The notes beneath the pieces are model-generated. The model was not told the origin of the DNA, did no database searches, and worked only from the letters and a program-made list of their open reading frames with translations. A stretch of DNA of 64,000 bases from a virus. Lineage: Duplodnaviria; Caudoviricetes. Where the stretch lies: IMG/VR virus record IMGVR_UViG_3300035180_001680; one strand, written 5' to 3'. Numbering within the stretch: position 1 is the stretch's first letter; every line of letters begins with the position of its first letter. The translations under genes were made by a program, and so were the position numbers. This document shows, piece by piece, positions 21,810 through 48,140 of this stretch.

Positions 21810-21819
21810 TTCTTCTGAA

Positions 21820-21852: not shown

Positions 21853-21865
21853 GTGTGGCTTCATA

Positions 21866-24783: not shown

Positions 24784-24793
24784 TTTATCTCCA

Positions 24794-25093: not shown

Positions 25094-25142
25094 TTTTTAC
25101 CTTTTTAATAAATACGTATATACAATATTTATGAGAGATAAT

Positions 25143-28085: not shown

Positions 28086-28225
28086 AGTGCGTCCTTTGTT
28101 ATAATTATTATTGTTTATTATTCTAATAATTATACACCGAGAAGATAAAGAAAAACAACATTTTAATGTTCAATTGACTACTTTCTTATTGTTGCTACAC
28201 CAGAAACATTTTCCAGTGTGCAGTT

Positions 28226-28768
28226 TCATTTCGAAAGTCCTTTAATAAATTCGTTGTATGGTTTAGCCCGTTCTGTATCTTTTGCAATAGCAGGTTCTGC
28301 TTCAGGCCATCTTCCCTTGATGATATAACGAGCATACCAATAAGCCCACCGTGGATCTTTTGTAATAACATGTTCTGCTTTAGGAAATCTTCCTTTGATG
28401 ACATCACGAGCATACCAATAAGCCCAACGTGGATCTTTTGCAATAGCAGGTTCTCCTTCAGGCCATCTTCCTTCAATGACATCACGAGCATACAAAAAAG
28501 CCCATTCTGGATCTTTTGCAATAGCAGGTTCTCCTTCAGGCCACTTTCCCTTGATGACATCACGATCATAACTATAAGCCCACTGTGGATCTGTTGCAAC
28601 AACAGATTCTGCTTCTTTTTTCTGTTGTGCGTTTAATTTTCCACTTTTTAGTGCCTCATATGCCATCTGTGGAGTAGCCATGTGCTTTTTATCAAACCCA
28701 TGCAATTTTTCTGGGTTTGAATGATATTTGTATAAATCCATTGCTTCAAACAAGTCGCGTAATTTCAT
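28226..28768 (-). CDS. Array unit 27 (180 aa, 4 repeats, last)
   Basis: Head, repeats and cap. Confidence 0.9.
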   Translation of the reverse strand: MKLRDLFEAMDLYKYHSNPEKLHGFDKKHMATPQMAYEALKSGKLNAQQKKEAESVVATDPQWAYSYDRDVIKGKWPEGEPAIAKDPEWAFLYARDVIEGRWPEGEPAIAKDPRWAYWYARDVIKGRFPKAEHVITKDPRWAYWYARYIIKGRWPEAEPAIAKDTERAKPYNEFIKGLSK

Positions 28769-29385
28769 TTCGAAAGTCCTTTGATGAATTCGTTGTAATT
28801 TTTAGCCCACTTTGGATCTTTTGCAATAGCAGGTTCTCCTTCAGGCCATCTTTCTTTGATGACATCACGAGCATACCCATAAGCCCACTTTGGATCTTTT
28901 GCAATGACAGATTCTGCTTCAGGCCATCTTCCTTTGATGACATCACGAGCATACCCATAAGCCAACTCTGGATCTTTTGCAATAGCAGGTTCTCCTTTAG
29001 GAAACCTTCCTTTGATGACCTCACGAGCATACCAATAAGCCAAACGTGGATCTTTTGCAACAGTAGGTTCTGCTTCAGGAAATCTTTCCTTGATGACATC
29101 ACGAGCATAAATATAAGCCAAACGTGGATCTTTTGCAATGACAGATTCTCCTTTAGGCCATCTTCCCTTGATGACATCATGAGCATACTCATAAGCCCAC
29201 TTTGTGTCTGTTGCAACAACAGATTCTGCTTCTTTCTTTTGTTGTGCATTCAGTTTTCCACTCTCCAGTGCCTCATATGCCATCTCAGGCGTAGCCATGT
29301 GCTTTTTATCAAACCCATGCAATTTTTCTGGGTTTGAATGATATTTGTATAAATCCATTGCTTCGAGTAAGTCACGTAGTTTCAT
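28765..29385 (-). CDS. Array unit 26 (206 aa, 5 repeats)
   Basis: Leader MKLRDLLEA. Confidence 0.9.
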   Translation of the reverse strand: MKLRDLLEAMDLYKYHSNPEKLHGFDKKHMATPEMAYEALESGKLNAQQKKEAESVVATDTKWAYEYAHDVIKGRWPKGESVIAKDPRLAYIYARDVIKERFPEAEPTVAKDPRLAYWYAREVIKGRFPKGEPAIAKDPELAYGYARDVIKGRWPEAESVIAKDPKWAYGYARDVIKERWPEGEPAIAKDPKWAKNYNEFIKGLSK

Positions 29386-30080
29386 TTCGAAAGTCCTTTG
29401 ATGTCTTGTTTATACCGTTTAGCATATGTTGGATCTTTTGCAATAGCAGGTTCTTATTCAGGCCATCTTCCTTTGATGACAGAACGAGCATAATTATAAG
29501 TCCAACGTGGGTCTTTTGCAATAGCAGGTTCTGCTTCAGGCCATCTTCCTTTGACGGCATCACGAGCATACAAAAAAGCCCATTCTGGATCTTTTGCAAT
29601 AGCAGGTTCTCCTTTAGGAAATCTTTCTTTGATAACATTACTAGCATACCAATAAGCCCACCGTGGATCTTTTGCAATAGCAGGTTCTCCTTCAAACCAT
29701 CTTCCTTTGATGACATCACGAGCATACAAAAAAGCCCATTCTGGGTCTTTTGCAATAGCAGGTTCTGCTTCAGACCATCTTCCTTTGATGACATCACGAG
29801 CATACAAAAAAGCCCATTCTGGGTCTTTTGCAATAGCAGGTTCTGCTTCAGACCATCTTCCTTTGATGACATTACGAGCATAACTATAAGCCCACTGTGG
29901 ATCTGTTGCAACAACAGACTCTGCTTCTTTTTTCTGTTGTGTGTTTAATTTTCCACCTTTTAATGCAAAAAAAGCCATCTCAGGAGTAGCCATGTGTTTT
30001 TTATCAAACCCATGCAATTTTTCTGGATTCGAGTGATATTTGTATAAATCCATTGCTTCAAACAAGTCGCGTAATTTCAT
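29382..30080 (-). pseudogene. Array unit 25, premature stop (208 of 232 aa, C-cap lost)
   Basis: In-frame TAA at 29454-29456 (GAA TAA GAA where siblings have GAA GCA/GGA GAA). The cap downstream is intact and in frame. Confidence 0.8.
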
Positions 30081-30775
30081 TTCGAAAGTCCTTTGATGTC
30101 TTGTTTATACCGTTTAGCATATGTCGGATCTTTTGCAATAACAGGTTCTGCTTCAGGAAATCTTCCTTTGATGACATTACGAGCATAATACGAAGCCCAC
30201 TGTGGATCTTTTGCAATAACAGATTCTGCTTCAGGAAATCTTCCTTTGATGACATTACGAGCATACCAATAAGCATACTGTGGATCTTTTGCAATAGCAG
30301 GTTCTCCTTCAGGCCATCTTCCTTTGATGGCACCACGAGCATACTCATAAGCCCATTCTGGATGTTTTGCAATAGCAGGTTCTCCTTCAGGCCATCTTCC
30401 TTTAATGACATCATGAGTATACCAATAAGCATACTCTGGATGTTTTGCAATAGCAGGTTCTCCTTCAGGCCATCTTCCTTTAGTGACATCATGAGTATAC
30501 CAATAAGCATACTTTGGATCTTTTGCAATAGCAGGTTCTCCTTCAGGCCATCTTCCTTTGATGGCATCACGAGCGTACTCATAAGCCCACCGTGGATCTG
30601 TTGCAACAACAGACTCTGCTTCTTTTTTCTGTTGTGCGTTTAATTTTCCACCTTTTAATGATTCAAAAGCCATCTCAGGCGTAGCCATGTGCTTTTTATC
30701 ATATCCATGCAATTTCTCTGGATTTGAGTGGTATTTGTATAAGTCCATTGCTTCGAATAAGTCACGTAATTTCAT
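30077..30775 (-). CDS. Array unit 24 (232 aa, 6 repeats)
   Basis: Cap allele DPTYAKRYKQDIKGLSK. Confidence 0.9.
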   Translation of the reverse strand: MKLRDLFEAMDLYKYHSNPEKLHGYDKKHMATPEMAFESLKGGKLNAQQKKEAESVVATDPRWAYEYARDAIKGRWPEGEPAIAKDPKYAYWYTHDVTKGRWPEGEPAIAKHPEYAYWYTHDVIKGRWPEGEPAIAKHPEWAYEYARGAIKGRWPEGEPAIAKDPQYAYWYARNVIKGRFPEAESVIAKDPQWASYYARNVIKGRFPEAEPVIAKDPTYAKRYKQDIKGLSK

Positions 30776-31314
30776 TTTGAAAGTCCTTTAATAAATTCGT
30801 TGTATGGTTTAGCCCACTCTGGATGTTTTGCAATAACAGGTTCTGCTTCAGGAAATCTTTCTTTGATGACATCACGAGCATACCCATAAGCCCACTCTGG
30901 ATCTTTTGCAATAACAGATTCTGCTTCAGGAAATCTTCCTTTGATGACATTACGAGCATACTCATAAGCCCAATCTGCTTTTTTTGCAATAGCAGGTTCT
31001 CCTTCAGGCCATCTTCCTTTGATGACATAACGAGCATACAAACAAGCCCAACGTGTATCTTTTGCAATGACAGATTCTCCTTTAGGAAATCTTTCTTTGA
31101 TGACATTACGAGCATACAAACAAGCCCATCTTGGATCTGTTGCAACAACAGACTCTGCTTCTTTTTTCTGTTGTGCGTTTAATTTTTCACCTTTTAATGC
31201 TTCAAAAGCCATCTCAGGCGTAGCCATGTGCTTTTTATCATATCCATGTAACTTCTCTGGATTTGAATGATATTTATATAAATCCATTGCTTCGAACAGA
31301 TCACGTAATTTCAT
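30772..31314 (-). CDS. Array unit 23 (180 aa, 4 repeats)
   Basis: Head, repeats and cap. Confidence 0.9.
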   Translation of the reverse strand: MKLRDLFEAMDLYKYHSNPEKLHGYDKKHMATPEMAFEALKGEKLNAQQKKEAESVVATDPRWACLYARNVIKERFPKGESVIAKDTRWACLYARYVIKGRWPEGEPAIAKKADWAYEYARNVIKGRFPEAESVIAKDPEWAYGYARDVIKERFPEAEPVIAKHPEWAKPYNEFIKGLSK

Positions 31315-31931: not shown

Positions 31932-32548
31932 TTTGAAAGTCCTTTGATGAATTCGTTGTATGGCTTAGCCCATTCTGGAACTTTTGCAATAACAGGTTCT
32001 GCTTCAGGAAATCTTCCTTTGATGACAGAACGAGCATAATATGAAGCCCACTGTGGATCTCTTGCAATAGCAGGTTCTCCTTCAGTCCATCTTCCTTTGA
32101 TGACATCACTAGCATACCAATAAGCCCAACGTGGATCTTTTGCAATAACAGATTCTGCTTCAGGAAATCTTCCTTTGATGACATCACGAGCATAATATGA
32201 AGCCCACTCTGGATGTTTTGCAATAACAGATTCTGCTTCAGGAAATCTTCCTTTGATGACTTGTTGAGCATACACATAAGCCCAATCTGCTTTTTTTGCA
32301 ATAACAGGTTCTGCTTCAGTAAATCTTCTTTCGATGACTTGTTGAGCATACCTATAAGCCCACCGTGGATCTTTTGCAACAACAGACTCTGCTTCTTTTT
32401 TCTGTTGTGCATTTAATTTTCCACTCTTTAATGCTTCAAAAGCCATCTCAGGCGTGGCCATGTGTTTTTTATCATATCCATGCAATTTTTCTGGGTTTGA
32501 ATGATATTTGTATAAATCCATTGCTTCGAATAGATCACGCAATTTCAT
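31928..32548 (-). CDS. Array unit 21 (206 aa, 5 repeats)
   Basis: Head, repeats and cap. Confidence 0.9.
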   Translation of the reverse strand: MKLRDLFEAMDLYKYHSNPEKLHGYDKKHMATPEMAFEALKSGKLNAQQKKEAESVVAKDPRWAYRYAQQVIERRFTEAEPVIAKKADWAYVYAQQVIKGRFPEAESVIAKHPEWASYYARDVIKGRFPEAESVIAKDPRWAYWYASDVIKGRWTEGEPAIARDPQWASYYARSVIKGRFPEAEPVIAKVPEWAKPYNEFIKGLSK

Positions 32549-33165
32549 TTCGAAAGTCCTTTAATAAATTCGTTGTATTTTTTAGCCCACTCTGGATTTT
32601 TTGCAATAGCAGGTTCTGCTTCAGGCCATCTTCCTTTGATGACATCACGAGCATACCAATAAGCATACTGTGGATCTTTTGCAATAGCAGGTTCTCCTTC
32701 AGGCCATCTTCCTTTGATGCTATCATCAGCATACTCATAAGCCCATTCTGGATCTTTTGCAATAGCAGGTTCTGCTTCAGGCCATCTTCCTTTGATGACA
32801 TTATGAGCATAATATGTGGCCCACTCTGGATGTTTTGCAATAACAGGTTCTGCTTTAGGCCATCTTCCTTCAATGATATCATCAGCATACCAATAAGCCC
32901 ACTGTGGGTTTTTTGCAATAACAGGTTCTGCCTCAGGCCATCTTCCTTGGATGATAGAACGAGCATACCAACAAGCAAACTTTGGATCTGTTGCAACAAC
33001 AGACTCTGCTTCTTTTTTCTGTTGCGCATTCAGTTTTCCACTCTCTAGTGCCTGATATGCCATCTCAGGCGTAGCCATGTGCTTTTTATCATATCCATGT
33101 AACTTCTCTGGATTTGAGTGGTATTTGTATAAATCCATCGCTTCGAATAAGTCACGTAGTTTCAT
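32545..33165 (-). CDS. Array unit 20 (206 aa, 5 repeats)
   Basis: Head, repeats and cap. Confidence 0.9.
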   Translation of the reverse strand: MKLRDLFEAMDLYKYHSNPEKLHGYDKKHMATPEMAYQALESGKLNAQQKKEAESVVATDPKFACWYARSIIQGRWPEAEPVIAKNPQWAYWYADDIIEGRWPKAEPVIAKHPEWATYYAHNVIKGRWPEAEPAIAKDPEWAYEYADDSIKGRWPEGEPAIAKDPQYAYWYARDVIKGRWPEAEPAIAKNPEWAKKYNEFIKGLSK

Positions 33166-33782
33166 TTTGAAAGTCCTTTGATGAATTCGTTGTATTTTTT
33201 AGCCCACTTTGGATCTTTTGCAATAACAGGTTCTCCTTCAGGCCATCTTCCTTTGATGACATAACGAGCATACTCATAAGCCCAACCTGGATCTTTTGCA
33301 ATAACAGGTTCTGCTTCAGTCCATCTTCCTTTGATGACATAACGAGCATACCAATAAGCCCACCTTGGGTCTTTTACAATAGCAGGTTCTGCCTTAGGCC
33401 ATCTTCCTTGGATGATAGAGCGAGCATATTCATAAGCCCAATCTGCTTTTTTTGCAATAACAGGTTCTGCTTCAGGCCATCTTCCTTTGATGACTTGTTG
33501 AGCATACACACAAGCCCAATCTGCTTTTTTTGCAATAACAGGTTCTGCTTCAGGAAATCTTCTTTCGATGACTTGTTGGGCGTACTCATAAGCCCACCGT
33601 GGATCTGTTGCAACAACAGATTCTGCTTCTTTCTTTTGTTGTGCATTTAATTTTCCACTCTTTAGTGCCTCATAAGCCATCTCAGGAGTAGCCATGTGTT
33701 TTTTATCATATCCATGTAACTTCTCTGGATTTGAATGATATTTGTATAAATCCATTGCTTCGAATAGATCACGTAATTTCAT
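33162..33782 (-). CDS. Array unit 19 (206 aa, 5 repeats)
   Basis: Head, repeats and cap. Confidence 0.9.
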   Translation of the reverse strand: MKLRDLFEAMDLYKYHSNPEKLHGYDKKHMATPEMAYEALKSGKLNAQQKKEAESVVATDPRWAYEYAQQVIERRFPEAEPVIAKKADWACVYAQQVIKGRWPEAEPVIAKKADWAYEYARSIIQGRWPKAEPAIVKDPRWAYWYARYVIKGRWTEAEPVIAKDPGWAYEYARYVIKGRWPEGEPVIAKDPKWAKKYNEFIKGLSK

Positions 33783-34399
33783 TTTGAAAGTCCTTTGATG
33801 TCTTGTTTATACCGTTTAGCATATGTTGGGTCTTTTGCAATAGCAGGTTCTCCTTCAATCCATCTTCCTTTGATGACATCACTAGCATACCAATAAGCCC
33901 AACGTGGATCTTTTGCAATAACAGATTCTGCTTCAGGAAATCTTCCTTTGATGACATCGCGAGCATACAACCAAGCCCATTCTGGATCTTTTACAATAAC
34001 AGATTCTGCTTCAGGAAATCTTCCTTTAATGACATCATGAGCGTACATATAAGCCGTCCGTGGATTTTTTGCAATAACAGATTCTGCTTCAGGAAATCTT
34101 CCTTTGATGAAATCACGAGCATACAAAAAAGCCCATTCTGGATCTTTTGCAATAACAGATTCTGCTTCAGGCCATCTTCCTTTGATGATATCATCAACAT
34201 ACCTATAAGCCCAACGTGGATCTTTTGCGATAACAGACTCTGCTTCTTTTTTCTGTTGTGCATTTAATTTTCCACCTTTTAATGCTCCAAAAGCCATCTC
34301 AGGCGTAGCCATGTGTTTTTTATCAAACCCATGCAATTTTTCTGGGTTTGAATGATATTTGTATAAATTCATCGCTTCGAATAAGTCGCGTAGTTTCAT
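33779..34399 (-). CDS. Array unit 18 (206 aa, 5 repeats)
   Basis: Cap allele DPTYAKRYKQDIKGLSK. Confidence 0.9.
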   Translation of the reverse strand: MKLRDLFEAMNLYKYHSNPEKLHGFDKKHMATPEMAFGALKGGKLNAQQKKEAESVIAKDPRWAYRYVDDIIKGRWPEAESVIAKDPEWAFLYARDFIKGRFPEAESVIAKNPRTAYMYAHDVIKGRFPEAESVIVKDPEWAWLYARDVIKGRFPEAESVIAKDPRWAYWYASDVIKGRWIEGEPAIAKDPTYAKRYKQDIKGLSK

Positions 34400-35789: not shown

Positions 35790-36484
35790 TTTGAAAGTCC
35801 TTTGATGAATTCTTTGTAATTTTTAGCCAGGTGTGGATCTTTTGCAATGACAGATTCTGCTTCAGGAAATCTTTCCTTGATGACATCACGAGCATACCCA
35901 TAAGCATAATCTGGATCTTTTGCAATAGCAGGTTCTCCTTTGGGAAATCTTTCTTTAATGACATCACGAGCATAACTATAAGCCCACCGTGGATCTTTTG
36001 CAATAACAGGTTCTGCTTCAGGAAATCTTCCTTTGATGACAGAATGAGCATACCAATAAGCATACTCTGGATCTTTTGCAATAACAGGTTCTCCTTTAGG
36101 AAATCTTCCTTTGATGACATCACGAGCATAATATGAAGCCCACCGTGGATCTTTTGCAATAACAGACTCTGCTTCAGGAAAGCTTCCTTTGATGACATCA
36201 CGAGCATAATATGAAGCAAACTTTGGATCTGTTGCAACAACAGGTTCTCCTTCAGGAAATCTTCCTTTGATGACATCACGAGCATAATATGAAGCAAACT
36301 TTGGATCTGTTGCAACAACAGATTCTGCTTCTTTCTTTTGTTGTGCATTCAGTTTTCCACTCTCTAGTGCCTCATAGGCCATCTCAGGAGTAGCCATGTG
36401 TTTTTTATCATATCCATGTAACTTCTCTGGATTCGAGTGGTATTTGTATAAATCCATTGCTTCGAGTAGATCACGCAATTTCAT
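35786..36484 (-). CDS. Array unit 15 (232 aa, 6 repeats)
   Basis: Leader MKLRDLLEA. Tandem DPKFASYYARDVIKG modules. Confidence 0.9.
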   Translation of the reverse strand: MKLRDLLEAMDLYKYHSNPEKLHGYDKKHMATPEMAYEALESGKLNAQQKKEAESVVATDPKFASYYARDVIKGRFPEGEPVVATDPKFASYYARDVIKGSFPEAESVIAKDPRWASYYARDVIKGRFPKGEPVIAKDPEYAYWYAHSVIKGRFPEAEPVIAKDPRWAYSYARDVIKERFPKGEPAIAKDPDYAYGYARDVIKERFPEAESVIAKDPHLAKNYKEFIKGLSK

Positions 36485-37179
36485 TTTGAAATTCCTTTAA
36501 TAAATTCTTTGTATTTTTTGGTCCATTCTGAATCTTTTGCAATAATAGGTTCTGCTTCAGGAAATCTTCCTTTGATGACATAACGAGCATACCAATAAGC
36601 CCAACCTGAATCTTTTGCAATAATAGGTTCTGCTTCAGGAAATCTTCCTTTGATGACATTACGAGCATACCAATAAGCCCACTGTGGGTTTTTTGCAATA
36701 ACCGGTTCTGCTTCAGACCATCTTCCTTTAGTGACATCACGAGCATAATCATAAGCCCATTTTGGATGTTTTGCAATAGCAGGTTCTGCTTCAGGCCATC
36801 TTCCTTTGATGACATCACGAGCGTACGTATAAGCCGACCGTGGATCTTTTGCAATGACAGATTCTCCTTTAGGAAATCTTTCTTTGATGACATTACAAGC
36901 ATACCAATAAGCCCATTCAGGATCTTTTGCAATAACAGGTTCTGCCTTAGGCCATCTTCCTTGGATGACATCACGAGCATAATATGAAGCAAACTCTGGA
37001 TCTGTTACAACAACAGATTCTGCTTCTTTCTTTTGTTGTGCATTTAATTTTCCACTCTTTAGTGCCTCATAAGCCATCTCAGGCGTAGCCATGTGTTTTT
37101 TATCAAACCCATGCAATTTTTCTGGGTTTGAATGATATTTGTATAAATCCATTGCTTCGAGTAGATCACGCAATTTCAT
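36481..37179 (-). CDS. Array unit 14 (232 aa, 6 repeats)
   Basis: Leader MKLRDLLEA. Confidence 0.9.
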   Translation of the reverse strand: MKLRDLLEAMDLYKYHSNPEKLHGFDKKHMATPEMAYEALKSGKLNAQQKKEAESVVVTDPEFASYYARDVIQGRWPKAEPVIAKDPEWAYWYACNVIKERFPKGESVIAKDPRSAYTYARDVIKGRWPEAEPAIAKHPKWAYDYARDVTKGRWSEAEPVIAKNPQWAYWYARNVIKGRFPEAEPIIAKDSGWAYWYARYVIKGRFPEAEPIIAKDSEWTKKYKEFIKGISK

Positions 37180-37718: not shown

Positions 37719-38335
37719 TTCGAAAGTCCTTTGATGAATTCGTTGTAATTTTTAGCCAGGTGTGGATCTTTTGCAATAGCAGATTCTGCTTCAGGAAATC
37801 TTCCTTTAATGACATAACGAGCATACGTATAAGCCCACTGTGGATCTTTTGCAATGACAGATTCTCCTTTAGGAAATCTTTCTTTGATGACTTGTTGAGC
37901 ATACACATAAGCCCAATCTGCTTTTTTTGCAATAGCAGGTTCTCCTTTAGGAAACCTTCCTTCGATAACATTACGAGCATACAAACAAGCCCACTCTGGA
38001 TCTTTTGCAATGACAGATTCTCCTTTAGGAAATCTTTCTCCAATGACATCTATAGCATACTCATAAGCCAACTCTGGATCTTTTGCAATAATAGGTTCTC
38101 CTTTAGGAAACCTTCCTTTGATGACATTACGAGCATACTCATAAGCAAACTTTGGATCTGTTGCAACAACAGATTCTGCTTCTTTTTTCTGTGGTACATT
38201 TAATTTTCCACTCTTTAGTGCCTCATAGGCCATCTCAGGAGTAGCCATGTGCTTTTTATCATATCCATGTAACTTCTCTGGATTTGAATGATATTTGTAT
38301 AAATCCATCGCTTCGAATAGATCACGTAATTTCAT
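37715..38335 (-). CDS. Array unit 12 (206 aa, 5 repeats)
   Basis: Head, repeats and cap. Confidence 0.9.
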   Translation of the reverse strand: MKLRDLFEAMDLYKYHSNPEKLHGYDKKHMATPEMAYEALKSGKLNVPQKKEAESVVATDPKFAYEYARNVIKGRFPKGEPIIAKDPELAYEYAIDVIGERFPKGESVIAKDPEWACLYARNVIEGRFPKGEPAIAKKADWAYVYAQQVIKERFPKGESVIAKDPQWAYTYARYVIKGRFPEAESAIAKDPHLAKNYNEFIKGLSK

Positions 38336-38952
38336 TTTGAAAGTCCTTTGATGAATTCGTTGTATGGCTTAGCCCACTGTGGATCTTTTGCAATAACAGG
38401 TTCTGCTTCAGGCCATCTTCCTTTGATGACATGACGAGCATACCAATAAGCCCAACCTGGATCTTTTGCAATAACAGGTTCTGCTTCAGGCCATCTTCCC
38501 CTGATGACATCACGAGCATACGGACAAGCCCGCGTTGGATCTGTTGCAATAGCAGGTTCTCCTTTAGGAAATCTTCCTTTGATGATATCATCAGCATAAT
38601 TATAAGCCCAACGTGGATCTTTTGCAATAACAGGTTCTGCTTCAGGAAATCTTTCTTTGATGACATCACGAGCATACAAAAAAGCCCATTCTGGATCTTT
38701 TGCAATAGCAGGTTCTCCTTTAGGAAATCTTTCTTTGATGACATTACAAGCATACCAATAAGCCCACTGTGGGTTTTTTGCAACAACAGACTCTGCTTCT
38801 TTTTTCTGTTGTGCGTTTAATTTTCCATCTTTTAATGCTCCACAAGCCATCTCAGGCGTAGCTATGTGCTTTTTATCATATCCAGGTAACGTCTCTGGAT
38901 TCGAGTGATATTTGTATAAATCCATCGCTTCGAATAGATCACGTAATTTCAT
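38332..38952 (-). CDS. Array unit 11 (206 aa, 5 repeats)
   Basis: Head variant ETLPGYDKKHI, shared with unit 2. Confidence 0.9.
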   Translation of the reverse strand: MKLRDLFEAMDLYKYHSNPETLPGYDKKHIATPEMACGALKDGKLNAQQKKEAESVVAKNPQWAYWYACNVIKERFPKGEPAIAKDPEWAFLYARDVIKERFPEAEPVIAKDPRWAYNYADDIIKGRFPKGEPAIATDPTRACPYARDVIRGRWPEAEPVIAKDPGWAYWYARHVIKGRWPEAEPVIAKDPQWAKPYNEFIKGLSK

Positions 38953-39645: not shown

Positions 39646-40262
39646 TTCGAAAGTCCTTTGATGTCTTGTTTATACCGTTTAGCATATGTTGGATCTTTTG
39701 CAATAACAGGTTCTGCTTCAGGAAATCTTCCTTTGATGACATCACGAGCATACCCATAAGCAAACTCTGGATCTTTTGCAATAACAGGTTCTGCTTTAGG
39801 CCATCTTCCTTTGATGACATCATGAGTATACCAATAAGCCGACTTTGGATATTTTGCAATAACAGATTCTGCTTCAGAAAATCTTCCTTTGATGACATCA
39901 CGAGCATAATATGAAGCCCAACCTGGATCTTTTGCAATAACAGGTTCTGCTTCAGGCCATCTTCCTTTGATGACATCACGAGCATACAAACAAGCCCACT
40001 GTGGATTTTTTGCAATAGCAGGTTCTCCTTTAGGAAATCTTCTTTCGGTGACATCACGAGCATAATAATGAGCCAACTCTGGAACTTTTGCAATAACAGA
40101 CTCTGCTTCTTTTTTCTGTTGTGCGTTTAATTTTCCACTCTTTAGTGCCTCATAGGCCATCTCAGGAGAAACCATGTGCCTTTTATCATATCCATGTAAC
40201 TTCTCTGGATTTGAGTGGTATTTGTATAAATTCATTGCTTCGAATAAGTCACGTAGTTTCAT
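39642..40262 (-). CDS. Array unit 9 (206 aa, 5 repeats)
   Basis: Cap allele DPTYAKRYKQDIKGLSK. Confidence 0.9.
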   Translation of the reverse strand: MKLRDLFEAMNLYKYHSNPEKLHGYDKRHMVSPEMAYEALKSGKLNAQQKKEAESVIAKVPELAHYYARDVTERRFPKGEPAIAKNPQWACLYARDVIKGRWPEAEPVIAKDPGWASYYARDVIKGRFSEAESVIAKYPKSAYWYTHDVIKGRWPKAEPVIAKDPEFAYGYARDVIKGRFPEAEPVIAKDPTYAKRYKQDIKGLSK

Positions 40263-40879
40263 TTCGAAAGTCCTTTAATAAATTCGTTGTAATTTTTAGT
40301 CGACTGTAGGTTTTTTGCAATAGCAGGTTCTCCTTCAGGCCATCTTCCTTTGATGACATGACGAGCATAATATGAAGCCCACCGTGGAGCTTTTGCAATA
40401 GCAGGTTCTCCTTCAGGCCATCTTCCTTTGATGACATCACGAGCATACCCATAAGCATACTCTGGGTGTTTTGCAATGACAGATTCTCCTTTAGGAAATC
40501 TTTCTTCGATGACATAACGAGCATAATATGAAGCCCATTGTGGATCTTTTGCAATAGCAGGTTCTCCTTCAGGCCATCTTCCTTTAATGACACCATGAGC
40601 ATACCAATAAGCATACTCTGGGTGTTTTGCAATGATAGATTCTCCTTTAGGAAATCTTTCTTTGATGACTCGTTGAGCATACTCATAAGCCCACTGTGGA
40701 TCTGTTGCAACAACAGACTCTGCTTCTTTTTTCTGTTGTGCATTCAGTTTTCCACTCTCTAGTGCCTCATAAGCCATCTCAGGAGTAGCCATGTGCTTTT
40801 TATCAAACCCATGCAATTTTTCTGGGTTTGAATGATATTTGTATAAATCCATTGCTTCGAATAAGTCACGTAATTTCAT
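40259..40879 (-). CDS. Array unit 8 (206 aa, 5 repeats)
   Basis: Head, repeats and cap. Confidence 0.9.
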   Translation of the reverse strand: MKLRDLFEAMDLYKYHSNPEKLHGFDKKHMATPEMAYEALESGKLNAQQKKEAESVVATDPQWAYEYAQRVIKERFPKGESIIAKHPEYAYWYAHGVIKGRWPEGEPAIAKDPQWASYYARYVIEERFPKGESVIAKHPEYAYGYARDVIKGRWPEGEPAIAKAPRWASYYARHVIKGRWPEGEPAIAKNLQSTKNYNEFIKGLSK

Positions 40880-41730
40880 TTTGAAATTCCTTTAATAAAT
40901 TCGTTGTATTTTTTAGCCCACTTTGGATGTTTTGCAATAACAGATTCTGCTTCAGGAAATCTTCCCCTGATGACATTATGAGCATACCAATAAGCCCAAC
41001 GTGGATCTTTTGCAATAACAGGTTCTGCTTCAGGCCATCTTCCTTTAATGAAATCACGAGCATACGTATAAGCCCAATCTGCTTTTTTTGCAATAGCAGG
41101 TTCTGCTTCAGGCCATCTTCCTTTGATGACATCACGAGCATACAAAAAAGCCCGTTCTGGATCTTTTGCAATAGCAGGTTCTCCTTTAGGAAATCTTTCT
41201 TTGATGACAAAATGAGCGTAATATGAAGCCCACTGTGGATCTGTTGCAATAGCAGGTTCTCCTTTAGGCCATCTTCCTTTAATGACATCACGAGCATAAC
41301 TATAAGCATACCCTGGAACTTTTGCAATAGCAGGTTCTGCTTCAGGCCATCTTTCTTTGATGACATCACGAGCGTACCAATAAGCCGACTCTGGAACTTT
41401 TGCAAAGACAGATTCTCCTTCAGGCCATCTTCCTTTGATGACATCACGAGCATACCAATAAGCCAACTCTAGATCTTTTGCAATAACAGGTTCTCCTTTA
41501 GGAAACCTTCCTTTGATGAAATCACGAGCGTACTCATAAGCCCATCTTGGATCTTTTGCAACAACAGATTCTGCTTCTTTTTTCTGTTGTGCATTTAATT
41601 TTCCACCTTTTAATGCTTCAAAAGCCATCTCAGGAGTAGCCATGTGTTTTTTATCAAACCCATGCAATTTCTCTGGATTCGAGTGATATTTGTATAAATC
41701 CATTGCTTCGAATAAGTCACGTAGTTTCAT
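40876..41730 (-). CDS. Array unit 7 (284 aa, 8 repeats)
   Basis: Head, repeats and cap. Confidence 0.9.
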   Translation of the reverse strand: MKLRDLFEAMDLYKYHSNPEKLHGFDKKHMATPEMAFEALKGGKLNAQQKKEAESVVAKDPRWAYEYARDFIKGRFPKGEPVIAKDLELAYWYARDVIKGRWPEGESVFAKVPESAYWYARDVIKERWPEAEPAIAKVPGYAYSYARDVIKGRWPKGEPAIATDPQWASYYAHFVIKERFPKGEPAIAKDPERAFLYARDVIKGRWPEAEPAIAKKADWAYTYARDFIKGRWPEAEPVIAKDPRWAYWYAHNVIRGRFPEAESVIAKHPKWAKKYNEFIKGISK

Positions 41731-42815
41731 TTCGAAAGTCCTTTGATGAATTCGTTGTATTTTTTAGTCCATCTTGGATCTTTTGCAATAACAGATTCTG
41801 CTTCAGGCCATCTTCCTTTAATGACATGACGAGCATACCAATAAGCATACTCTGGATGTTTTACAATAGCAGGTTCTCCTTCAGACCATCTTCCTTTGAT
41901 GACATAACGAGCATACTCATAAGCCCACCGTGGGTTTTTTGCAATAACAGGTTCTCCTTCAGGCCATCTTCCTTTGATGACATAATGAGCATACACACAA
42001 GCCCACTGTGGATCTTTTGCAATAACAGGTTCTCCTTTAGGAAACCTTCCTTTGATGACATTGAGAGCATACTCATAAGCCAACTCTGGATCTTTTGCAA
42101 TAACAGGTTCTCCTTTAGGAAACCTTCCTTTGATGACATTGAGAGCATACGCATAAGCCCAATATGCTTTTTTTGCAATAGCAGGTTCTCCTTCAGGCCA
42201 TCTTCCTTTAATGAAATCACGAGCATACATATAAGCCCAACCTGGATCTTTTGCAATAACATGTTCTACTTCAGGCCATCTTCCTTTGATGACATAACGA
42301 GCATACTCACAAGCCCAATGTGGATCTTTTGCAATAGCAGGTTCTCCTTTAGGAAACCTTCCTTTAATGAAATCATGAGCATACGTATAAGCCCAATCTG
42401 CTTTTTTTGCAATAGCGGGTTCTCCTTCAGGCCATCTTCCTTTGATGAAATTACGAGCATACGCATAAGCCCACTTTGGATCTTTTGCAATAACAGGTTC
42501 TCCTTTAGTAAACCTTCCTTTGATGACATCTGTAGCATACTCATAAGCCAACTCTGGAACTTTTGCAATGACAGATTCTGCTTTAGGCCATCTTCCTTTG
42601 ATGACATTACGAGCATACCTATAAGCCCACGTTGTATCTGTTGCAACAACAGATTCTGCTTCTTTCTTTTGTTGTGCATTTAATTTTCCACTCTTTAGTG
42701 CCTCATAGGCCATCTCAGGAGTAGCCATGTGTTTTTTATCAAACCCATGCAATTTTTCTGGATTCGAGTGGTATTTGTATAAATCCATTGCTTCGAATAA
42801 GTCACGTAGTTTCAT
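41727..42815 (-). CDS. Array unit 6 (362 aa, 11 repeats, longest)
   Basis: Head, 11 repeats and cap. Confidence 0.9.
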   Translation of the reverse strand: MKLRDLFEAMDLYKYHSNPEKLHGFDKKHMATPEMAYEALKSGKLNAQQKKEAESVVATDTTWAYRYARNVIKGRWPKAESVIAKVPELAYEYATDVIKGRFTKGEPVIAKDPKWAYAYARNFIKGRWPEGEPAIAKKADWAYTYAHDFIKGRFPKGEPAIAKDPHWACEYARYVIKGRWPEVEHVIAKDPGWAYMYARDFIKGRWPEGEPAIAKKAYWAYAYALNVIKGRFPKGEPVIAKDPELAYEYALNVIKGRFPKGEPVIAKDPQWACVYAHYVIKGRWPEGEPVIAKNPRWAYEYARYVIKGRWSEGEPAIVKHPEYAYWYARHVIKGRWPEAESVIAKDPRWTKKYNEFIKGLSK

Positions 42816-43585
42816 TTCGAAAGTCCTTTGATGAATTCGTTGTATTTTTTAGCCCACTGTGGATCTTTTGCAATAGCAGGTTCTCCTTCAGGCCATCTTC
42901 CTTTGATGACATCACGAACATACAAAAAAGCCAACTCTGGATTTTTTGCAATAACAGGTTCTGCTTCATGCCATCTTCCTTTGATGACATAACGAGCATA
43001 CGCATAAGCATACTCTGGAACTTTTGCAATAGCAGGTTCTCCTTTAGGAAACCTTCCTTTGATAACATTATGAGCATACAAATAAGCCAACTCTGGATCT
43101 TTTGCAAAGACATATTCTCCTTTAGGAAATCTTTCTTTAATGACATCTTCAGCATACTCATAAGCCCACTGTGGATTTTTTGCAATAGCAGGTTCTCCTT
43201 CAGGCCATCTTCCTTTGATGACACCACGAGCATACCAATAAGCATACTTTGGATCTTTTGCAATAGCAGGTTCTCCTTCAGGCCATCTTCCTTTGATGAC
43301 ATAATGATACTCATAAGCCCACTTTGGATCTTTTGCAATAACAGGTTCTGCTTCAGGCCATCTTCCTTTGATGACATTACAAGCATACTCATAAGCCCAC
43401 CGTGGATCTGTTGCAACAACAGATTCTGCTTCTTTCTTTTGTTGTGCATTCAGTTTTCCACTCTCTAGTGCCCCATAGGCCATCTCAGGCGTAGCCATGT
43501 GTTTTTTATCATATCCATGCAATTTTTCTGGATTTGAGTGGTATTTGTATAAATCCATTGCTTCAAATAAGTCACGTAATTTCAT
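42812..43585 (-). CDS. Array unit 5 (257 aa, 7 repeats, one codon deleted)
   Basis: Repeat 2 reads AYEYHYVIK, lacking the conserved Ala9. Confidence 0.9.
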   Translation of the reverse strand: MKLRDLFEAMDLYKYHSNPEKLHGYDKKHMATPEMAYGALESGKLNAQQKKEAESVVATDPRWAYEYACNVIKGRWPEAEPVIAKDPKWAYEYHYVIKGRWPEGEPAIAKDPKYAYWYARGVIKGRWPEGEPAIAKNPQWAYEYAEDVIKERFPKGEYVFAKDPELAYLYAHNVIKGRFPKGEPAIAKVPEYAYAYARYVIKGRWHEAEPVIAKNPELAFLYVRDVIKGRWPEGEPAIAKDPQWAKKYNEFIKGLSK

Positions 43586-44358
43586 TTTGAAATTCCTTTG
43601 ATGAATTGGTTATACTGTTTAGCATATGTTGGGTCTTTTGCAATAACAGGTTCTGCTTCAGGAAATCTTCCTTTGATGACATCACGAGCATACTCATAAG
43701 CCCACCGTGGATCTTTTGCAATAGCAGGTTCTCCTTCAGGCCATCTTCCTTTAATGACAGAACGAGCATAGTATAAAGCCCAATCTGCTTTTTTTGCAAT
43801 AACAGGTTCTCCTTCAGACCATCTTCCTTTGATGACATCACGAGCATAACCATAAGCCCAATCTGGATCTTTTGCAATAGCAGGTTCTCCTTTAGGCCAT
43901 CTTCCTTTGATGATATTACGAGCATACTCATAAGCCCACTGTGGACCTGTTGCAATAGCAGGTTCTCCTTTAGGCCATCTTCCTTTGATGACATCACGAG
44001 CATACCAATAAGCCAACCGTGGATCTTTTGCAATAACAGGTTCTGCTTCAGGCCATCTTCCTTTGATGGCATCGCGAGCATACCAATAAGCCAACTCTGG
44101 ATCTTTTGCAATAACAGGTTCTGCTTCAGGCCATCTTCTTTTGATGACAGAACGAGCATACCAATGAGCATACTCTGGATCTGTTACAATAACAGATTCT
44201 GCTTCTTTCTTTTGTTGTGCGTTTAATTTTCTACTCTTTAGTGCTTTAAAAGCCATCTCAGGCGTAGCCATGTGCTTTTTATCAAACCCATGCAATTTTT
44301 CTGGGTTTGAATGATATTTGTATAAATCCATCGCTTCGAATAAGTCACGTAGTTTCAT
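43582..44358 (-). CDS. Array unit 4 (258 aa, 7 repeats)
   Basis: Head, repeats and cap. ATGA overlap. Confidence 0.9.
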   Translation of the reverse strand: MKLRDLFEAMDLYKYHSNPEKLHGFDKKHMATPEMAFKALKSRKLNAQQKKEAESVIVTDPEYAHWYARSVIKRRWPEAEPVIAKDPELAYWYARDAIKGRWPEAEPVIAKDPRLAYWYARDVIKGRWPKGEPAIATGPQWAYEYARNIIKGRWPKGEPAIAKDPDWAYGYARDVIKGRWSEGEPVIAKKADWALYYARSVIKGRWPEGEPAIAKDPRWAYEYARDVIKGRFPEAEPVIAKDPTYAKQYNQFIKGISK

Positions 44359-45209
44359 TTTGAAATTCCTTTGATGTATTGTTTATAATATTTAGCATAC
44401 TCTGGATGTTTTGCAATAACAGGTTCTCCTTCAGGAAATCTTCCTTTGATGACATCACGAGCATACCAATAAGCATACTCTGGATGTTTTGCAATAACAG
44501 GTTCTCCTTCAGGAAATCTTCCTTTGATGACATCACGAGCATACCAATATGCTGACCCTGACTCTTTTGCAATAGCAGGTTCTCCTTCAGTCCATCTTCC
44601 TTTAATTACAGAACGAGCATAATGTAAAGCCCACCGTGGATCTTTTGCAATAGCAGGTTCTGCTCCAGGCCATCTTCCTTTGATGACATAACAAGCATAC
44701 TCATAAGCCCACTCTAGATCTTTTACAATAGCAGGTTCTCCTTCAGGCCATCTTCCTTCGACGACATCGTGAGCGTACATATAAGCCATCCGTGGATCTT
44801 TTGCAATAACAGGTTCTGCTTTAGGCCATCTTCCCTTGATGACATCACGAGCATAAATATAAGCCCACTTTGGATCTTTTGCAATAACAGGTTCTGTTTT
44901 AGGCCATCTTCCTTTGATGACATAACGAGCATACCTATAAGCCCACTCTGGAACTTTTGCAAAGACAGATTCTCCTTCAGGCCATCTTCCTTTGATGACA
45001 TCACGAGCATAAATGTAAACCAACTCTGGATCTGTTGCAACAACAGATTCTGCTTCTTTTCTCTGTTGTGCGTTTAATTTTCCACCTTTTAATGCTTCAA
45101 AAGCCATCTCAGGAGTAGCCATGTGTTTTTTATCAAACCCATGCAATTTTTTTGGATTCGAGTGATATTTGTATAAATCCATTGCTTCGAATAAGTCGCG
45201 TAGTTTCAT
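44355..45209 (-). CDS. Array unit 3 (284 aa, 8 repeats)
   Basis: Contains an exact 78-bp tandem duplication near its 3' end. Confidence 0.9.
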   Translation of the reverse strand: MKLRDLFEAMDLYKYHSNPKKLHGFDKKHMATPEMAFEALKGGKLNAQQRKEAESVVATDPELVYIYARDVIKGRWPEGESVFAKVPEWAYRYARYVIKGRWPKTEPVIAKDPKWAYIYARDVIKGRWPKAEPVIAKDPRMAYMYAHDVVEGRWPEGEPAIVKDLEWAYEYACYVIKGRWPGAEPAIAKDPRWALHYARSVIKGRWTEGEPAIAKESGSAYWYARDVIKGRFPEGEPVIAKHPEYAYWYARDVIKGRFPEGEPVIAKHPEYAKYYKQYIKGISK

Positions 45210-45904
45210 TTCGAAAGTCCTTTGATGAATTCGTTGTATTTGTTAGCCCATTCTGGATCTTTTGCAATAGCAGGTTCTCCTTCAGGCCATCTTCCTTTAA
45301 TGACATGACGAGCATACACATAAGCCCACTTTGGATCTTTTGCAATAGCAGGTTCTGCTTCAGGAAATCTTTCTTTAATGACATAATAAGCATAATATGA
45401 AGCCGACTGTAGATCTTTTACAATAGCAGGTTCTCCTTCAGGCCATCTTCCTTTAATGACATGACGAGCATACAACCAAGCCCATTCTGGATCTTTTGCA
45501 ATAACAGGTTCTGCTTTAGTCCATCTTCCTTTAATGACATGATGAGCATACCAACAAGCCCACTCTGGATCTTTTGCAATAACAGGTTCTGCTTTAGGCC
45601 ATCTTCCTTTGATGACATAACGAGCATAACTATAAGCCCACTCTGAATCTTCTGCAATAACAGGTTCTACTTTAGGCCATCTTCCTTTGATGACATAACG
45701 AGCATACCTATAAGCCCATCGTGGATCTGTTGCAATAACAGACTCCGCTTCTTTTTTCTGTTGTGCGTTTAGTTTTCCACTCTTTAGTGCCTCATAGGCC
45801 ATCTCAAGAGTAATTATGTGCTTTTTATCATATCCAGGTAACGTCTCTGGATTCGAGTGATATTTGTATAAGTCCATTGCTTCAAATAAGTCACGTAATT
45901 TCAT
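45206..45904 (-). CDS. Array unit 2 (232 aa, 6 repeats)
   Basis: Head variant ETLPGYDKKHI, shared with unit 11. Confidence 0.9.
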   Translation of the reverse strand: MKLRDLFEAMDLYKYHSNPETLPGYDKKHIITLEMAYEALKSGKLNAQQKKEAESVIATDPRWAYRYARYVIKGRWPKVEPVIAEDSEWAYSYARYVIKGRWPKAEPVIAKDPEWACWYAHHVIKGRWTKAEPVIAKDPEWAWLYARHVIKGRWPEGEPAIVKDLQSASYYAYYVIKERFPEAEPAIAKDPKWAYVYARHVIKGRWPEGEPAIAKDPEWANKYNEFIKGLSK

Positions 45905-46521
45905 TTTGAAAGTCCTTTAATAAATTCGTTGTATTTGTTAGCCCACTGTGGATCTTTTGCAATAGCAGGTTCTCCTTTAGGAAACCTTCCTTTGATGACA
46001 TGACGAGCATACGCATAAGCCCAATATGCTTTTTTTGCAATAGCAGGTTCTGCTTCAGGCCATCTTCCTTTAATGACATAACGAGCATACCCACAAGCAT
46101 ACTCTGGATCTTTTGCAATAGCAGGTTCTCCTTTAGGAAACCTTCCTTTGATGACATTGAGAGCATACGCATAAGCCCAATATGCTTTTTTTGCAATAGC
46201 AGGTTCTGCTTCAGGCCATCTTCCTTTGATGACATCACGAGCATACGCATGAACCCACAGTAGATCTTTTGCAATAACAGGTTCCGCTTTAGGCCATCTT
46301 CCCTTAATGACATAATGAGCATACCAATAAGCCCACTGTGGATCTGTTGCAACAACAGACTCTGCTTCTTTTTTCTGTTGTGCGTTTAATTTTCCACCTT
46401 TTAATGCTCTAAAAGCCATCTCAGGCGTAGCTATGTGTTTTTTATCATATCCATGTAACTTCTCTGGGTTTGAATGATATTTGTATAAATCCATTGCTTC
46501 GAATAAGTCGCGCAATTTCAT
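45901..46521 (-). CDS. Array unit 1 (206 aa, 5 repeats)
   Basis: Head, repeats and cap. Starts 6 nt after the 526-aa ORF. Confidence 0.9.
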   Translation of the reverse strand: MKLRDLFEAMDLYKYHSNPEKLHGYDKKHIATPEMAFRALKGGKLNAQQKKEAESVVATDPQWAYWYAHYVIKGRWPKAEPVIAKDLLWVHAYARDVIKGRWPEAEPAIAKKAYWAYAYALNVIKGRFPKGEPAIAKDPEYACGYARYVIKGRWPEAEPAIAKKAYWAYAYARHVIKGRFPKGEPAIAKDPQWANKYNEFIKGLSK

Positions 46522-48132: not shown

Positions 48133-48140
48133 TATTTATA
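48133..48140 (-). promoter_or_regulatory. T4-type late promoter TATAAATA for the 526-aa gene and array operon
   Basis: Exact consensus on the minus strand, 25 nt upstream of the ATG at 48108. Confidence 0.75.

What the first reader, a model, noticed from the sequence alone, without database searches (positions are those of the whole stretch)
28226..46521. Opposite codon signatures: synonymous scrambling in the head, first-two-base change in variable codons
Seen: the invariant leader is encoded differently among units (ATG AAA TTG CGC GAC TTA TTC; ATG AAA TTA CGT GAC TTA TTT; ATG AAA CTA CGT GAT CTA TTC; ATG AAA TTA CGC GAC TTG TTT). In the repeats I read by hand, codons 4 and 7 almost always end in G or T. 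They use codons unexpected in AT-rich DNA (ACG, GCG, GGG, GTG, AGG, CCG, TCG, CGG) next to TGG and GAG. Inference: purifying selection on the leader and fast non-synonymous change at the binding face. A targeted mutator is a less likely alternative.
Basis: partly seen in the sequence, partly recalled or inferred. Interest (0 to 1): 0.62.

Follow-up and report, generated by a model that had tools for sequence, protein, structure and literature searches.

The report
Phage binder-gene array under diversifying selection
A T4-like giant phage carries 27 back-to-back genes for small helical-repeat proteins whose leader is kept constant while one helix face changes amino acids far faster than silent sites, which points to natural selection for diverse binders and not to a built-in mutator.

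Summary
Window 28226-46521 (minus strand) holds 27 translationally coupled paralogues. Each has a 56-aa head, 4-11 copies of a 26-aa two-helix repeat, and a 20-aa cap.

G-ending rare codons are about 6-fold over background usage.
- **Head:** pS 0.43, pN 0.036.
- **Repeat scaffold:** pS 0.10.
- **Six helix-face codons:** pN 0.39.

- **Third base:** it is a frozen relic of Trp (TGG) or Tyr/Phe (TAT/TTT) ancestral codons. Silent A/C endings are nearly absent because the repeats are young or homogenised by repeat turnover and short-tract exchange.
- **Comparison with other arrays:** two other young arrays from other phages show the same signature at TGG- or TAT-centred positions. Old arrays use all four third bases.
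- **Mutator:** a DGR-type mutator is rejected. The repeat has invariant A and T columns, and no reverse transcriptase was found in the window, a sister fragment or five relatives' records. A related array differs by 1 nt in 5.2 kb between two samples.

This scan had already noted the array itself on this same DNA. Function is inferred, not shown: a diversified binder repertoire, possibly capsid-packaged.

The parts
28226..46521 (-). Tandem array of 27 paralogous genes (head + n x 26-aa repeat + cap), with 4-nt ATGA overlaps between neighbours
45901..46521 (-). gene 1, 206 aa, 5 repeats; starts 6 nt after the stop of the upstream 526-aa ORF
45206..45904 (-). gene 2, 232 aa, 6 repeats
44355..45209 (-). 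gene 3, 284 aa, 8 repeats
43582..44358 (-). gene 4, 258 aa, 7 repeats
42812..43585 (-). gene 5, 257 aa, 7 repeats; repeat 2 lacks one codon
41727..42815 (-). gene 6, 362 aa, 11 repeats (longest)
40876..41730 (-). gene 7, 284 aa, 8 repeats
40259..40879 (-). gene 8, 206 aa
39642..40262 (-). gene 9, 206 aa
38949..39645 (-). gene 10, broken by a frameshift in repeat 5: frame 1 stops at 39130, and the rest of the gene, including the cap, continues in another frame to 38949
38332..38952 (-). gene 11, 206 aa
37715..38335 (-). gene 12, 206 aa
37176..37718 (-). gene 13, 180 aa, 4 repeats
36481..37179 (-). gene 14, 232 aa
35786..36484 (-). gene 15, 232 aa
35091..35789 (-). gene 16, 232 aa
34396..35094 (-). 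gene 17, 232 aa; repeats 2 and 3 differ by 1 nt (recent tandem duplication)
33779..34399 (-). gene 18, 206 aa
33162..33782 (-). gene 19, 206 aa; the member that was folded (pLDDT 92.7)
32545..33165 (-). gene 20, 206 aa
31928..32548 (-). gene 21, 206 aa
31311..31931 (-). gene 22, 206 aa
30772..31314 (-). gene 23, 180 aa; the only copy with TAT at head codon 13, which creates TATAAATA
30077..30775 (-). gene 24, 232 aa
29382..30080 (-). gene 25, cut short by TAA at 29454-29456 (repeat 6, position 23). The cap follows in frame. Two other metagenomes read GAA there
28765..29385 (-). gene 26, 206 aa
28226..28768 (-). gene 27, 180 aa, last of the array
46528..48108 (-). 526-aa ORF of unknown function directly upstream, probably in the same operon
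48133..48140 (-). TATAAATA (T4-type late-promoter octamer) 25 nt upstream of the 526-aa ORF start. Two other copies in the window lie 23-25 nt upstream of the starts of the ORFs at 10761 and 18492

Best explanation
The array is a multigene family of alpha-solenoid proteins in a T4-like giant phage, and one gene contains two evolutionary regimes. The N-terminal leader and head (cap) are old and under strong purifying selection. Their many silent differences are long-standing biallelic polymorphisms that short-tract exchange between paralogues has reshuffled into a unique mosaic in every copy. The 26-aa repeats turn over quickly: repeats are duplicated, lost and exchanged within and between genes, and possibly favoured modules sweep through. 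Their silent sites are therefore nearly uniform. On this young scaffold, amino-acid-changing substitutions at six codons on the exposed face of helix A (positions 6, 7, 9, 10, 13, 14) have been fixed several times faster than silent ones, which indicates positive diversifying selection on a binding surface. The G-or-T endings are a by-product. Positions 6, 7 and 10 descend from aromatic codons: TGG, which is Trp's only codon, or TAT/TTT. Only the first two bases have had time to change, so the rare codons GAG, TTG, GGG, GCG, GTG, AGG, ACG and CGG sit in an AT-rich genome. Shown here: the codon statistics, the fold prediction, the mosaicism, the absence of DGR hallmarks, and recurrence in other arrays. 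Inferred: the binding function, the targets (plausibly host defence or take-over proteins), and the cause of the low silent diversity.
For: Codon tables and third-base excess. pS and pN by region; bootstrap and replication in L005. Nearest-pair spectrum of 23 non-synonymous to 1 synonymous, and 234:37. Repeat divergence is the same within and between genes, so the repeats form one pool. 203 of 206 repeats are unique in DNA, yet identical or 1-2-nt-different repeats occur in tandem and in distant genes. Gene lengths step by 26 aa. LD in heads decays within about 15-30 nt, with the four-gamete fraction reaching 0.97. 31 head polymorphisms are shared with array L005 and none is fixed between the two. 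AF2 pLDDT is 92.7 with helix A at repeat positions 5-16. The variable residues span a 160-degree arc and the conserved A8, Y11, A12, V15 and I16 lie on the opposite side. The same positions are hypervariable across the family in 10 other phage arrays. Old arrays (scaffold third-base diversity 0.5-0.6) use all four third bases. Young ones repeat the signature: L040 position 6 is NNG in 20/22 around TGG, and L031 position 10 is NNT in 24/28 around TAT. Single-copy relatives use A-ending codons at position 6.
Against: No formal recombination-aware codon-model test could be run. The omega estimate depends on taking the repeat's own silent sites (about 0.10) as baseline; against the head's pS (0.43) the variable codons would look near neutral. 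Silent G/T variation does exist at position 6 (CGG 20 against CGT 10). An ancestral TGG at position 6 is inferred only from other arrays. The window is probably a short-read metagenome assembly, so gene order and part of the mosaicism could be assembly chimeras; per-position codon counts are not affected by that. No target, expression or binding data exist.
Confidence: 0.75

Rival explanations
1. A targeted mutator, either a diversity-generating retroelement or an unknown codon-phased mechanism, writes random bases into the first two positions of chosen codons.
For: The pattern superficially resembles DGR targets (template AAY giving NNY): variable first two bases and a restricted third base at ligand-facing residues in a phage protein.
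Against: Many A columns (for example 2.3, 3.1, 3.3, 11.2, 18.3, 19.1, 24.2) and T columns (1.2, 11.1, 20.1) are invariant in 152 repeats. At position 14 the first base varies (A26 C14 G81 T31) while the adjacent A is kept in 137/152. No RVT_1 match was found in the window's larger ORFs, in the sister fragment G001, or in five array-bearing phage records, two of them 70-76% complete, while the control genomes did give matches. L005 and L006, from two samples, differ by 1 nt in 5,203. Contigs from four metagenomes match at 99% or more, and of their 10 SNPs only 2 lie in hypervariable codons. Linked two-base dimorphisms without intermediates (TGG/TTT at position 20) and recurring modules are not random.
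Confidence: 0.04
2. Relaxed constraint only. The helix-face positions are neutral and simply free to drift, while gene conversion homogenises everything else. No positive selection is involved.
For: Measured against the head's pS (0.43), pN at the variable codons (0.39) is about 1. Concerted evolution clearly operates.
Against: Conversion tracts cannot skip single bases. Within the very same codons the always-silent third-base transitions are missing: 3 A/C endings in 304 codons at positions 7 and 10. G to A would also be favoured by this genome's codon usage (GAA .85, TTA over TTG, AGA over AGG). The youngest repeat pairs differ almost only non-synonymously. The residues used are enriched in W, Y, R, D, E, N and H, typical of binding surfaces. 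The same positions stay hypervariable in every lineage.
Confidence: 0.12
3. The silent uniformity of the repeats reflects selection on the nucleotide sequence itself (mRNA or DNA structure, homology kept for programmed cassette exchange, or a codon-aligned antisense ORF) and not youth.
For: Non-preferred codons are kept in nearly all repeats (GTC 125/129 Val, ATC 117/146 Ile). Long open frames run antisense through the repeats.
Against: Older arrays of the same family have scaffold third-base diversity of 0.5-0.6, so there is no family-wide nucleotide constraint. The antisense frame would forbid only TTA, CTA and TCA, so it does not explain the lack of GAA, GGA, GCA or C endings, and TCA occurs 11 times at position 9. 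The antisense products are low-complexity mirror images of the repeat.
Confidence: 0.06
4. Assembly artefact. The array or its mosaic pattern was created by mis-joining reads from several similar genes or strains.
For: In four public runs the array exists only as unitigs of about 100 nt, and none spans it. One run shows a back-joint inside the array (table 5).
Against: 25 of 27 frames are intact, with exact 26-aa length steps and ATGA junctions. Two independent samples assembled the same 5.2 kb of a related array with 1 mismatch. All 30 bins are covered at 99% or more in run X1. Codon-position statistics do not depend on the order of units.
Confidence: 0.03

Closest known systems
T4 internal proteins IPI/IPII/IPIII and their hypervariable locus (capsid targeting sequence, gp21 cleavage)
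   Same: T4-like phage context: PolB, clamp-like protein, RNase H-like exonuclease and Mre11/Rad50-like genes. A TATAAATA octamer heads the operon. There is a short N-terminal MK...L-x-E leader (MKLRDLFE/A). Leaderless relatives begin exactly at the following Met, and another array carries the shorter MKLHE/M. T4 IPs have 10-19-residue propeptides removed by gp21 after Glu, are poorly conserved between phages, and IPI blocks a host restriction system (PMC9026906).
   Different: No sequence similarity to IPs was found. Here there are 27 paralogues of a solenoid fold. Packaging, cleavage and a prohead protease gene in this phage were not shown. Peptidase_S77 was found in two other array-bearing records but not in the 72-kb sister fragment.
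Diversity-generating retroelement targets (e.g. Bordetella phage Mtd); from my own knowledge
   Same: Phage-encoded hypervariation concentrated in the first two bases of codons for ligand-contacting residues.
   Different: No RT, no template repeat, no adenine specificity. The variation is among germline paralogues and is stable between samples.
HEAT-like / designed helical-repeat binder libraries (alphaRep, DARPin-type NNK libraries)
   Same: Two-helix repeats stacked into a solenoid, with a few randomised positions on one helix face. alphaRep libraries are built on HEAT-like repeats with defined variable positions (PMC3754942, abstract). The third-base G/T pattern mimics NNK codons.
   Different: This is natural and has a shorter 26-aa unit. 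Structural matches are only generic (best Z 6.2, Foldseek E above 0.06). The NNK look arises by descent from TGG and TAT, not by design.
Tandem paralogue families with exchange plus positive selection on exposed repeat residues (plant NLR/LRR clusters such as RPP8; poxvirus gene 'accordions'; giant-virus ankyrin arrays)
   Same: Tandem copies, intergenic exchange, and diversifying selection on solvent-exposed positions of a repeat scaffold (RPP8: 10.1101/694240, abstract; the others from my own knowledge).
   Different: Found in a bacteriophage, as a single 18-kb operon of translationally coupled genes, with about 4-fold lower silent diversity in the repeats than in the heads of the same genes.

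Membership tests
Diversity-generating retroelement target | Reverse transcriptase encoded nearby or in the genome | tested here: not met
   No RVT_1 match in the window's large ORFs, in G001, or in five related array-bearing records, with positive controls. The complete genome was not available, so absence is not proven.
Diversity-generating retroelement target | Variation only at positions that are adenine in a template repeat (all template A's mutable) | tested here: not met
   Many A and T columns are invariant in 152 repeats. At position 14 one A varies and its neighbouring A does not.
Diversity-generating retroelement target | Non-coding template copy of the variable region | tested here: inconclusive
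   The only non-genic repeat-like stretches in the window are the remnants of broken genes 10 and 25. The rest of the genome could not be searched.
T4-type capsid-targeted internal protein | Short N-terminal propeptide ending in an (L/I)-x-E cleavage motif | tested here: met
   MKLRDL[FL]E-A is present in all 27 genes. Leaderless homologues start at Met10, and L013 genes carry MKLHE-M. The motif definition is from PMC9026906. This is a sequence resemblance only.
T4-type capsid-targeted internal protein | Late transcription | tested here: inconclusive
   TATAAATA lies 25 nt upstream of the operon's first ORF. The octamer count in the window is not above chance (9 against 5.8). No RNA data.
T4-type capsid-targeted internal protein | Presence in virions and processing by a gp21-type prohead protease | not testable with these tools
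   Needs virion proteomics. Peptidase_S77 was found in two related array-bearing records, but this phage's own genome is not held.
Alpha-solenoid (HEAT-like) repeat protein | Stacked helix-turn-helix repeats forming a superhelix | tested here: met
   AF2 pLDDT 92.7 with alternating 12- and 7-residue helices per 26-aa unit. The best structural neighbours are HEAT/PP2A-A, symplekin, Pumilio and designed helical repeats at Z 5-6. These are generic matches that show fold class only.
Pfam HTH_35 (PF13693) | Full-length match to the 75-position winged-helix model | tested here: not met
   37.9 bits on the 362-aa member comes from summed matches to profile positions 32-50 only, with no single stretch passing. 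The 206-aa member scores 18.8, below the cut-off of 25. The automatic 'HTH' names in the Atlas rest on the same partial hit.
Concertedly evolving tandem multigene family | Copies exchange sequence and change in number; repeats form one pool | tested here: met
   Within-gene repeat divergence equals between-gene divergence. There are 3-11 repeats per gene, near-identical repeats in tandem and across genes, and short-range LD only. However, a second array (L005) shares the same allele pool, so homogenisation is not genome-specific.

The most novel reading that the evidence does not exclude
The array is a phage-encoded 'innate repertoire'. About 25 different solenoid binders, made late, would be loaded into the capsid through a cleavable L-x-E leader and injected with the DNA, so that at least one neutralises whichever defence protein the next host carries. 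The nucleotide uniformity of the repeat scaffold would be kept because it lets T4-type recombination shuffle 10-30-nt segments and whole repeats into new specificities. That would be a germline combinatorial diversity system in a virus of bacteria, working without a reverse transcriptase.
Probability: 0.15. Interest if true: 0.85.

Novelty: new variant of a known kind. Interest (0 to 1): 0.6.

Why it matters
Diversifying selection on tandem repeat-protein families is familiar from plant and animal immunity and from large eukaryotic viruses. In phages, the known route to hypervariable binders is the reverse-transcriptase-based DGR. This array shows a second route.

- It uses a large germline family of short helical repeats.
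- Repeat turnover, short-tract exchange and strong positive selection give almost every one of about 150 repeats a unique binding face.
- The codon signature is a clean internal clock: the third base is frozen while the first two are saturated. It can be used to date and compare such arrays.
- Comparison with other phage arrays suggests the process recurs.
- The family is virus-restricted among its nearest Atlas clusters, widespread in metagenomes, has no Pfam family scoring as a real member (only partial sub-model hits) and has no solved relative.

If the proteins are injected anti-defence binders, they would be a rich source of natural inhibitors and of a compact scaffold for binder design.

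Tried and rejected
- **INPHARED phages:** megablast of the flank and tblastn of a unit found no match.
- **IMG/VR, single protein:** The search for related loci with one protein found nothing. It succeeded only with the alignment.
- **Own assembly:** not held.
- **G001:** this sister fragment (99% identical over window 18000-28118) has no array copy because the contig ends about 400 nt after a junction variant at 28110. It cannot show absence.
- **L005 flank:** it does not match the window or G001. I could not tell whether L005 is a second array of a close relative or the array of another phage.
- **Sequence libraries:** PDB sequence search, NCBIfam and PADLOC gave nothing meaningful.
- **Foldseek against PDB:** nothing at E of 0.001 or below.
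- **Literature:** searches for the family, for HTH_35, and for phage tandem arrays under diversifying selection found no description of it.
- **Expression:** no RNA holder is listed among public runs, so expression is untested.
- **Laid contigs:** they are short unitigs and cannot verify the order of units. One back-joint (46079 to 42066) in run X4 was not pursued.
- **Orthologue-based dN/dS between window and L005:** abandoned because no gene pair is orthologous. The best head identity between arrays (0.91-0.96) is the same as within the array.
- **Antisense-ORF explanation for the missing A endings:** considered and rejected (see rivals).
- **Not run:** no complex prediction, because no partner is known.

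Full report
**What is there**

The window is part of a T4-like giant phage. It holds these genes:
- a family B DNA polymerase with an intein;
- a clamp-like protein;
- an RNase H-like 5'-3' exonuclease;
- Mre11/Rad50-like genes;
- homing endonucleases;
- head-decoration-like proteins.

GC content is about 35%. On the minus strand, 28226-46521 is filled by 27 genes whose stop and start overlap as ATGA.

Every product has three parts:
- a 56-aa head beginning MKLRDL[FL]EAMDLYKYHSNPE;
- 4 to 11 copies of a 26-aa unit (consensus IAKDPxWAYxYARDVIKGRWPEAEPV);
- a 20-aa cap ending KGLSK.

Lengths therefore step by 26 aa (180, 206, 232, 258, 284, 362). Two copies are broken. Gene 10 has a frameshift. 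Gene 25 has a TAA that two other metagenomes read as GAA.

**Checking the observation**

I extracted 152 in-register repeats and tabulated every codon.

| Repeat position | G | T | A | C |
|---|---|---|---|---|
| 7 | 124 | 27 | 1 | 0 |
| 10 | 121 | 29 | 1 | 1 |
| 6 | 96 | 33 | 23 | 0 |

- Other ORFs of the window end codons in G only 12% of the time. They prefer GAA, TTA, AGA, GCA, GGT/GGA and ACA.
- Excluding Trp and Met, position 10 has 71 G-ending codons where 11.8 are expected (p 2e-41). Position 6 has 96 against 20.8.
- The scaffold codons are depleted in G.
- The leader is encoded in 13 (codons 1-7) or 18 (codons 1-9) DNA versions for two protein versions. No two 168-nt heads are identical.
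- Nei-Gojobori estimates:

| Region | pS | pN |
|---|---|---|
| Head | 0.434 | 0.036 |
| Repeat scaffold | 0.097 | 0.131 |
| Six variable codons | 0.276 | 0.385 |

- A tree-free measure, the diversity of synonymous codons among copies with the same residue, is 0.249 in the head and 0.082 in the repeat. The bootstrap intervals do not overlap. 26 of 52 head codons exceed 0.2, against 3 of 23 repeat codons (Fisher p 0.004).

So both halves of the title hold. The caveat is that the third base of the variable codons is a G/T dimorphism and is not invariant.

**What the G/T endings mean**

Third-base transitions (G to A, T to C) are always silent, and G to A would be favoured by this genome's codon usage. 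Even so, only 3 of 304 codons at positions 7 and 10 end in A or C.
- The commonest codons there are TGG (100 and 45 copies), followed by TAT and TTT.
- The G-ending set (TTG, GGG, AGG, CGG, TCG, then GAG, GCG, GTG, ATG, ACG, CCG) lies one or two first- or second-base steps from TGG.
- The T-ending set (AAT, CAT, GAT, ATT, AGT, GGT) lies one or two such steps from TAT.

The rare codons are therefore relics. Trp has a single codon, and only amino-acid-changing bases have moved since.

The family confirms this reading.
- Single-copy relatives in AT-rich phages use A-ending codons at position 6.
- In ten other phage arrays recovered from IMG/VR, the same positions (6, 7, 10, 13, 14, often 9) are the hypervariable ones.
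- Arrays whose scaffold third-base diversity is 0.5-0.6 use all four endings.
- Two younger arrays with different scaffolds repeat the signature. L040 position 6 is NNG in 20 of 22 repeats around TGG. L031 position 10 is NNT in 24 of 28 around TAT.
- First- and second-base diversity at the variable codons is already 0.38-0.45 here, where scaffold third-base diversity is 0.10. It rises only to about 0.6 in the oldest arrays.

**Selection or mutator**

The youngest repeat pairs give the cleanest spectrum.
- Among 16 pairs that differ by 1-2 nt, 26 of 27 differences are at codon positions 1-2. There are 23 non-synonymous codon differences and 1 synonymous, where random mutation would give 23% silent (p 0.015).
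- 85 pairs at 3-4 nt give 234:37 (p 6e-5).

A DGR is excluded by the sequence itself.
- Many A and T columns never vary in 152 repeats.
- At position 14 the first base takes all four values while the adjacent A is kept in 137 copies.
- No reverse transcriptase domain appears in the window's large ORFs, in the 72-kb sister fragment, or in five array-bearing phage records. The control genomes gave matches.

The array is also stable.
- A closely related array was assembled from two samples with 1 difference in 5,203 nt.
- Contigs from four metagenomes (sediment and microbial mat) lie on this array at 99% identity or more. They show ten single-base differences, of which only two fall in hypervariable codons and four are silent.

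**Why head and repeats differ in silent diversity**

Repeat-to-repeat divergence is the same within a gene as between genes. 203 of 206 repeats are unique, yet identical or nearly identical repeats occur side by side (gene 17; L005 gene 7) and in distant genes. Repeat number varies from 3 to 11.

In the heads, 39 biallelic sites are in linkage only over about 15 nt. All four gametes are present for 78-97% of site pairs 16-60 nt apart (89% beyond 60 nt). The second array, L005, shares 31 of the polymorphisms and shows no fixed difference.

I read this as an old pool of head alleles reshuffled by very short exchange tracts. The repeats would be renewed by duplication, loss and exchange, and perhaps by sweeps of favoured modules. 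Nucleotide-level constraint on the repeats is unlikely, because older arrays have freely diverged silent sites. This step is inference.

**Structure and likely function**

AlphaFold2 on an alignment of paralogues and metagenomic relatives gives a confident alpha-solenoid (pLDDT 92.7).
- Helix A spans repeat positions 5-16 and helix B spans positions 21-27.
- On a helical wheel the variable positions occupy a 160-degree arc. The conserved A8, Y11, A12, V15 and I16 occupy the opposite side.
- The variable residues are rich in W, Y, R, D, E, N and H.
- Structural neighbours are only generic HEAT-like and designed helical repeats (Z up to 6.2).
- There is no solved or curated relative. The HTH_35 label is a partial-profile artefact.
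- The nearest Atlas clusters are 94-100% viral by their few members with a taxon record. The word-indexed search found 755 metagenomic relatives.

A lead from another first-stage note was partly checked.
- TATAAATA sits 25 nt upstream of the 526-aa ORF that precedes the array by 6 nt.
- The first nine residues, MKLRDLFEA, are an add-on. Leaderless relatives start exactly at Met10, and another array carries MKLHE before the same Met.
- T4 internal proteins carry 10-19-residue capsid-targeting propeptides that gp21 removes after Glu, and their locus is hypervariable (PMC9026906).
- Packaging is therefore plausible but unproven.

**Verdict**

The thing itself is a new variant of a known kind: a tandem multigene family of repeat-protein binders under diversifying selection, here in a phage and without a retroelement.

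Noticed in passing
window 28110-28162: Structural polymorphism at the downstream edge of the array. In G001 and in contigs of runs X3 and X4, the sequence after 28110 continues into unrelated DNA (CTTTCTTTATCTCTC...). Other contigs enter the array at 28162 from a different sequence (GGTGATGCTCTGCC...). This looks like an insertion or replacement between the clamp-side flank and the array in sister strains.
   Followed up: partly
window 29454-29456: Gene 25 is truncated by TAA in this assembly, but metagenome runs X2 and X3 read GAA. The nonsense allele is therefore polymorphic in nature.
   Followed up: yes
window 38949-39645: Gene 10 is interrupted by a frameshift inside repeat 5. The cap continues in another frame. 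This is either a pseudogene or a sequencing error.
   Followed up: partly
head codon 13 of all 27 genes (e.g. window 31271-31278 in gene 23): Tyr codon 13 is TAC in 26/27 genes here and 11/12 in L005, although the background prefers TAT (352:112). TAT would create TATAAATA, the T4-type late-promoter octamer, inside every gene. One gene in each array has it. This may be silent-site selection against internal promoters.
   Followed up: partly
window 49066-52860 (-): The family B DNA polymerase is interrupted by an intein with a LAGLIDADG homing endonuclease domain.
   Followed up: no
window 19201-20721 (+) and 22396-23898 (-): Two paralogous ~500-aa homing endonuclease genes (phrog_3339/559) lie on opposite strands. 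They share about 70% DNA identity over roughly 200 nt.
   Followed up: no
window 2-8341 (+): A giant ORF of at least 2,779 aa runs off the window's start. A 2,552-aa ORF lies two genes upstream of the family member in locus L007. Not analysed.
   Followed up: no
repeat position 20 (all repeats): A strict two-base dimorphism, TGG (Trp, 82) against TTT (Phe, 70), with no TTG or TGT intermediates in 206 repeats. It is strongly linked to positions 18 and 22. This suggests two ancient helix-B types, not a product of stepwise mutation.
   Followed up: partly
loci L041, L019, L031 (IMG/VR): In other phages the same 26-aa repeat is fused to a different ~250-aa N-terminal domain starting MRL[KR]EF..ILEY. 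It also occurs in tandem clusters of 3-6 genes. The repeat module is combined with several head types.
   Followed up: no
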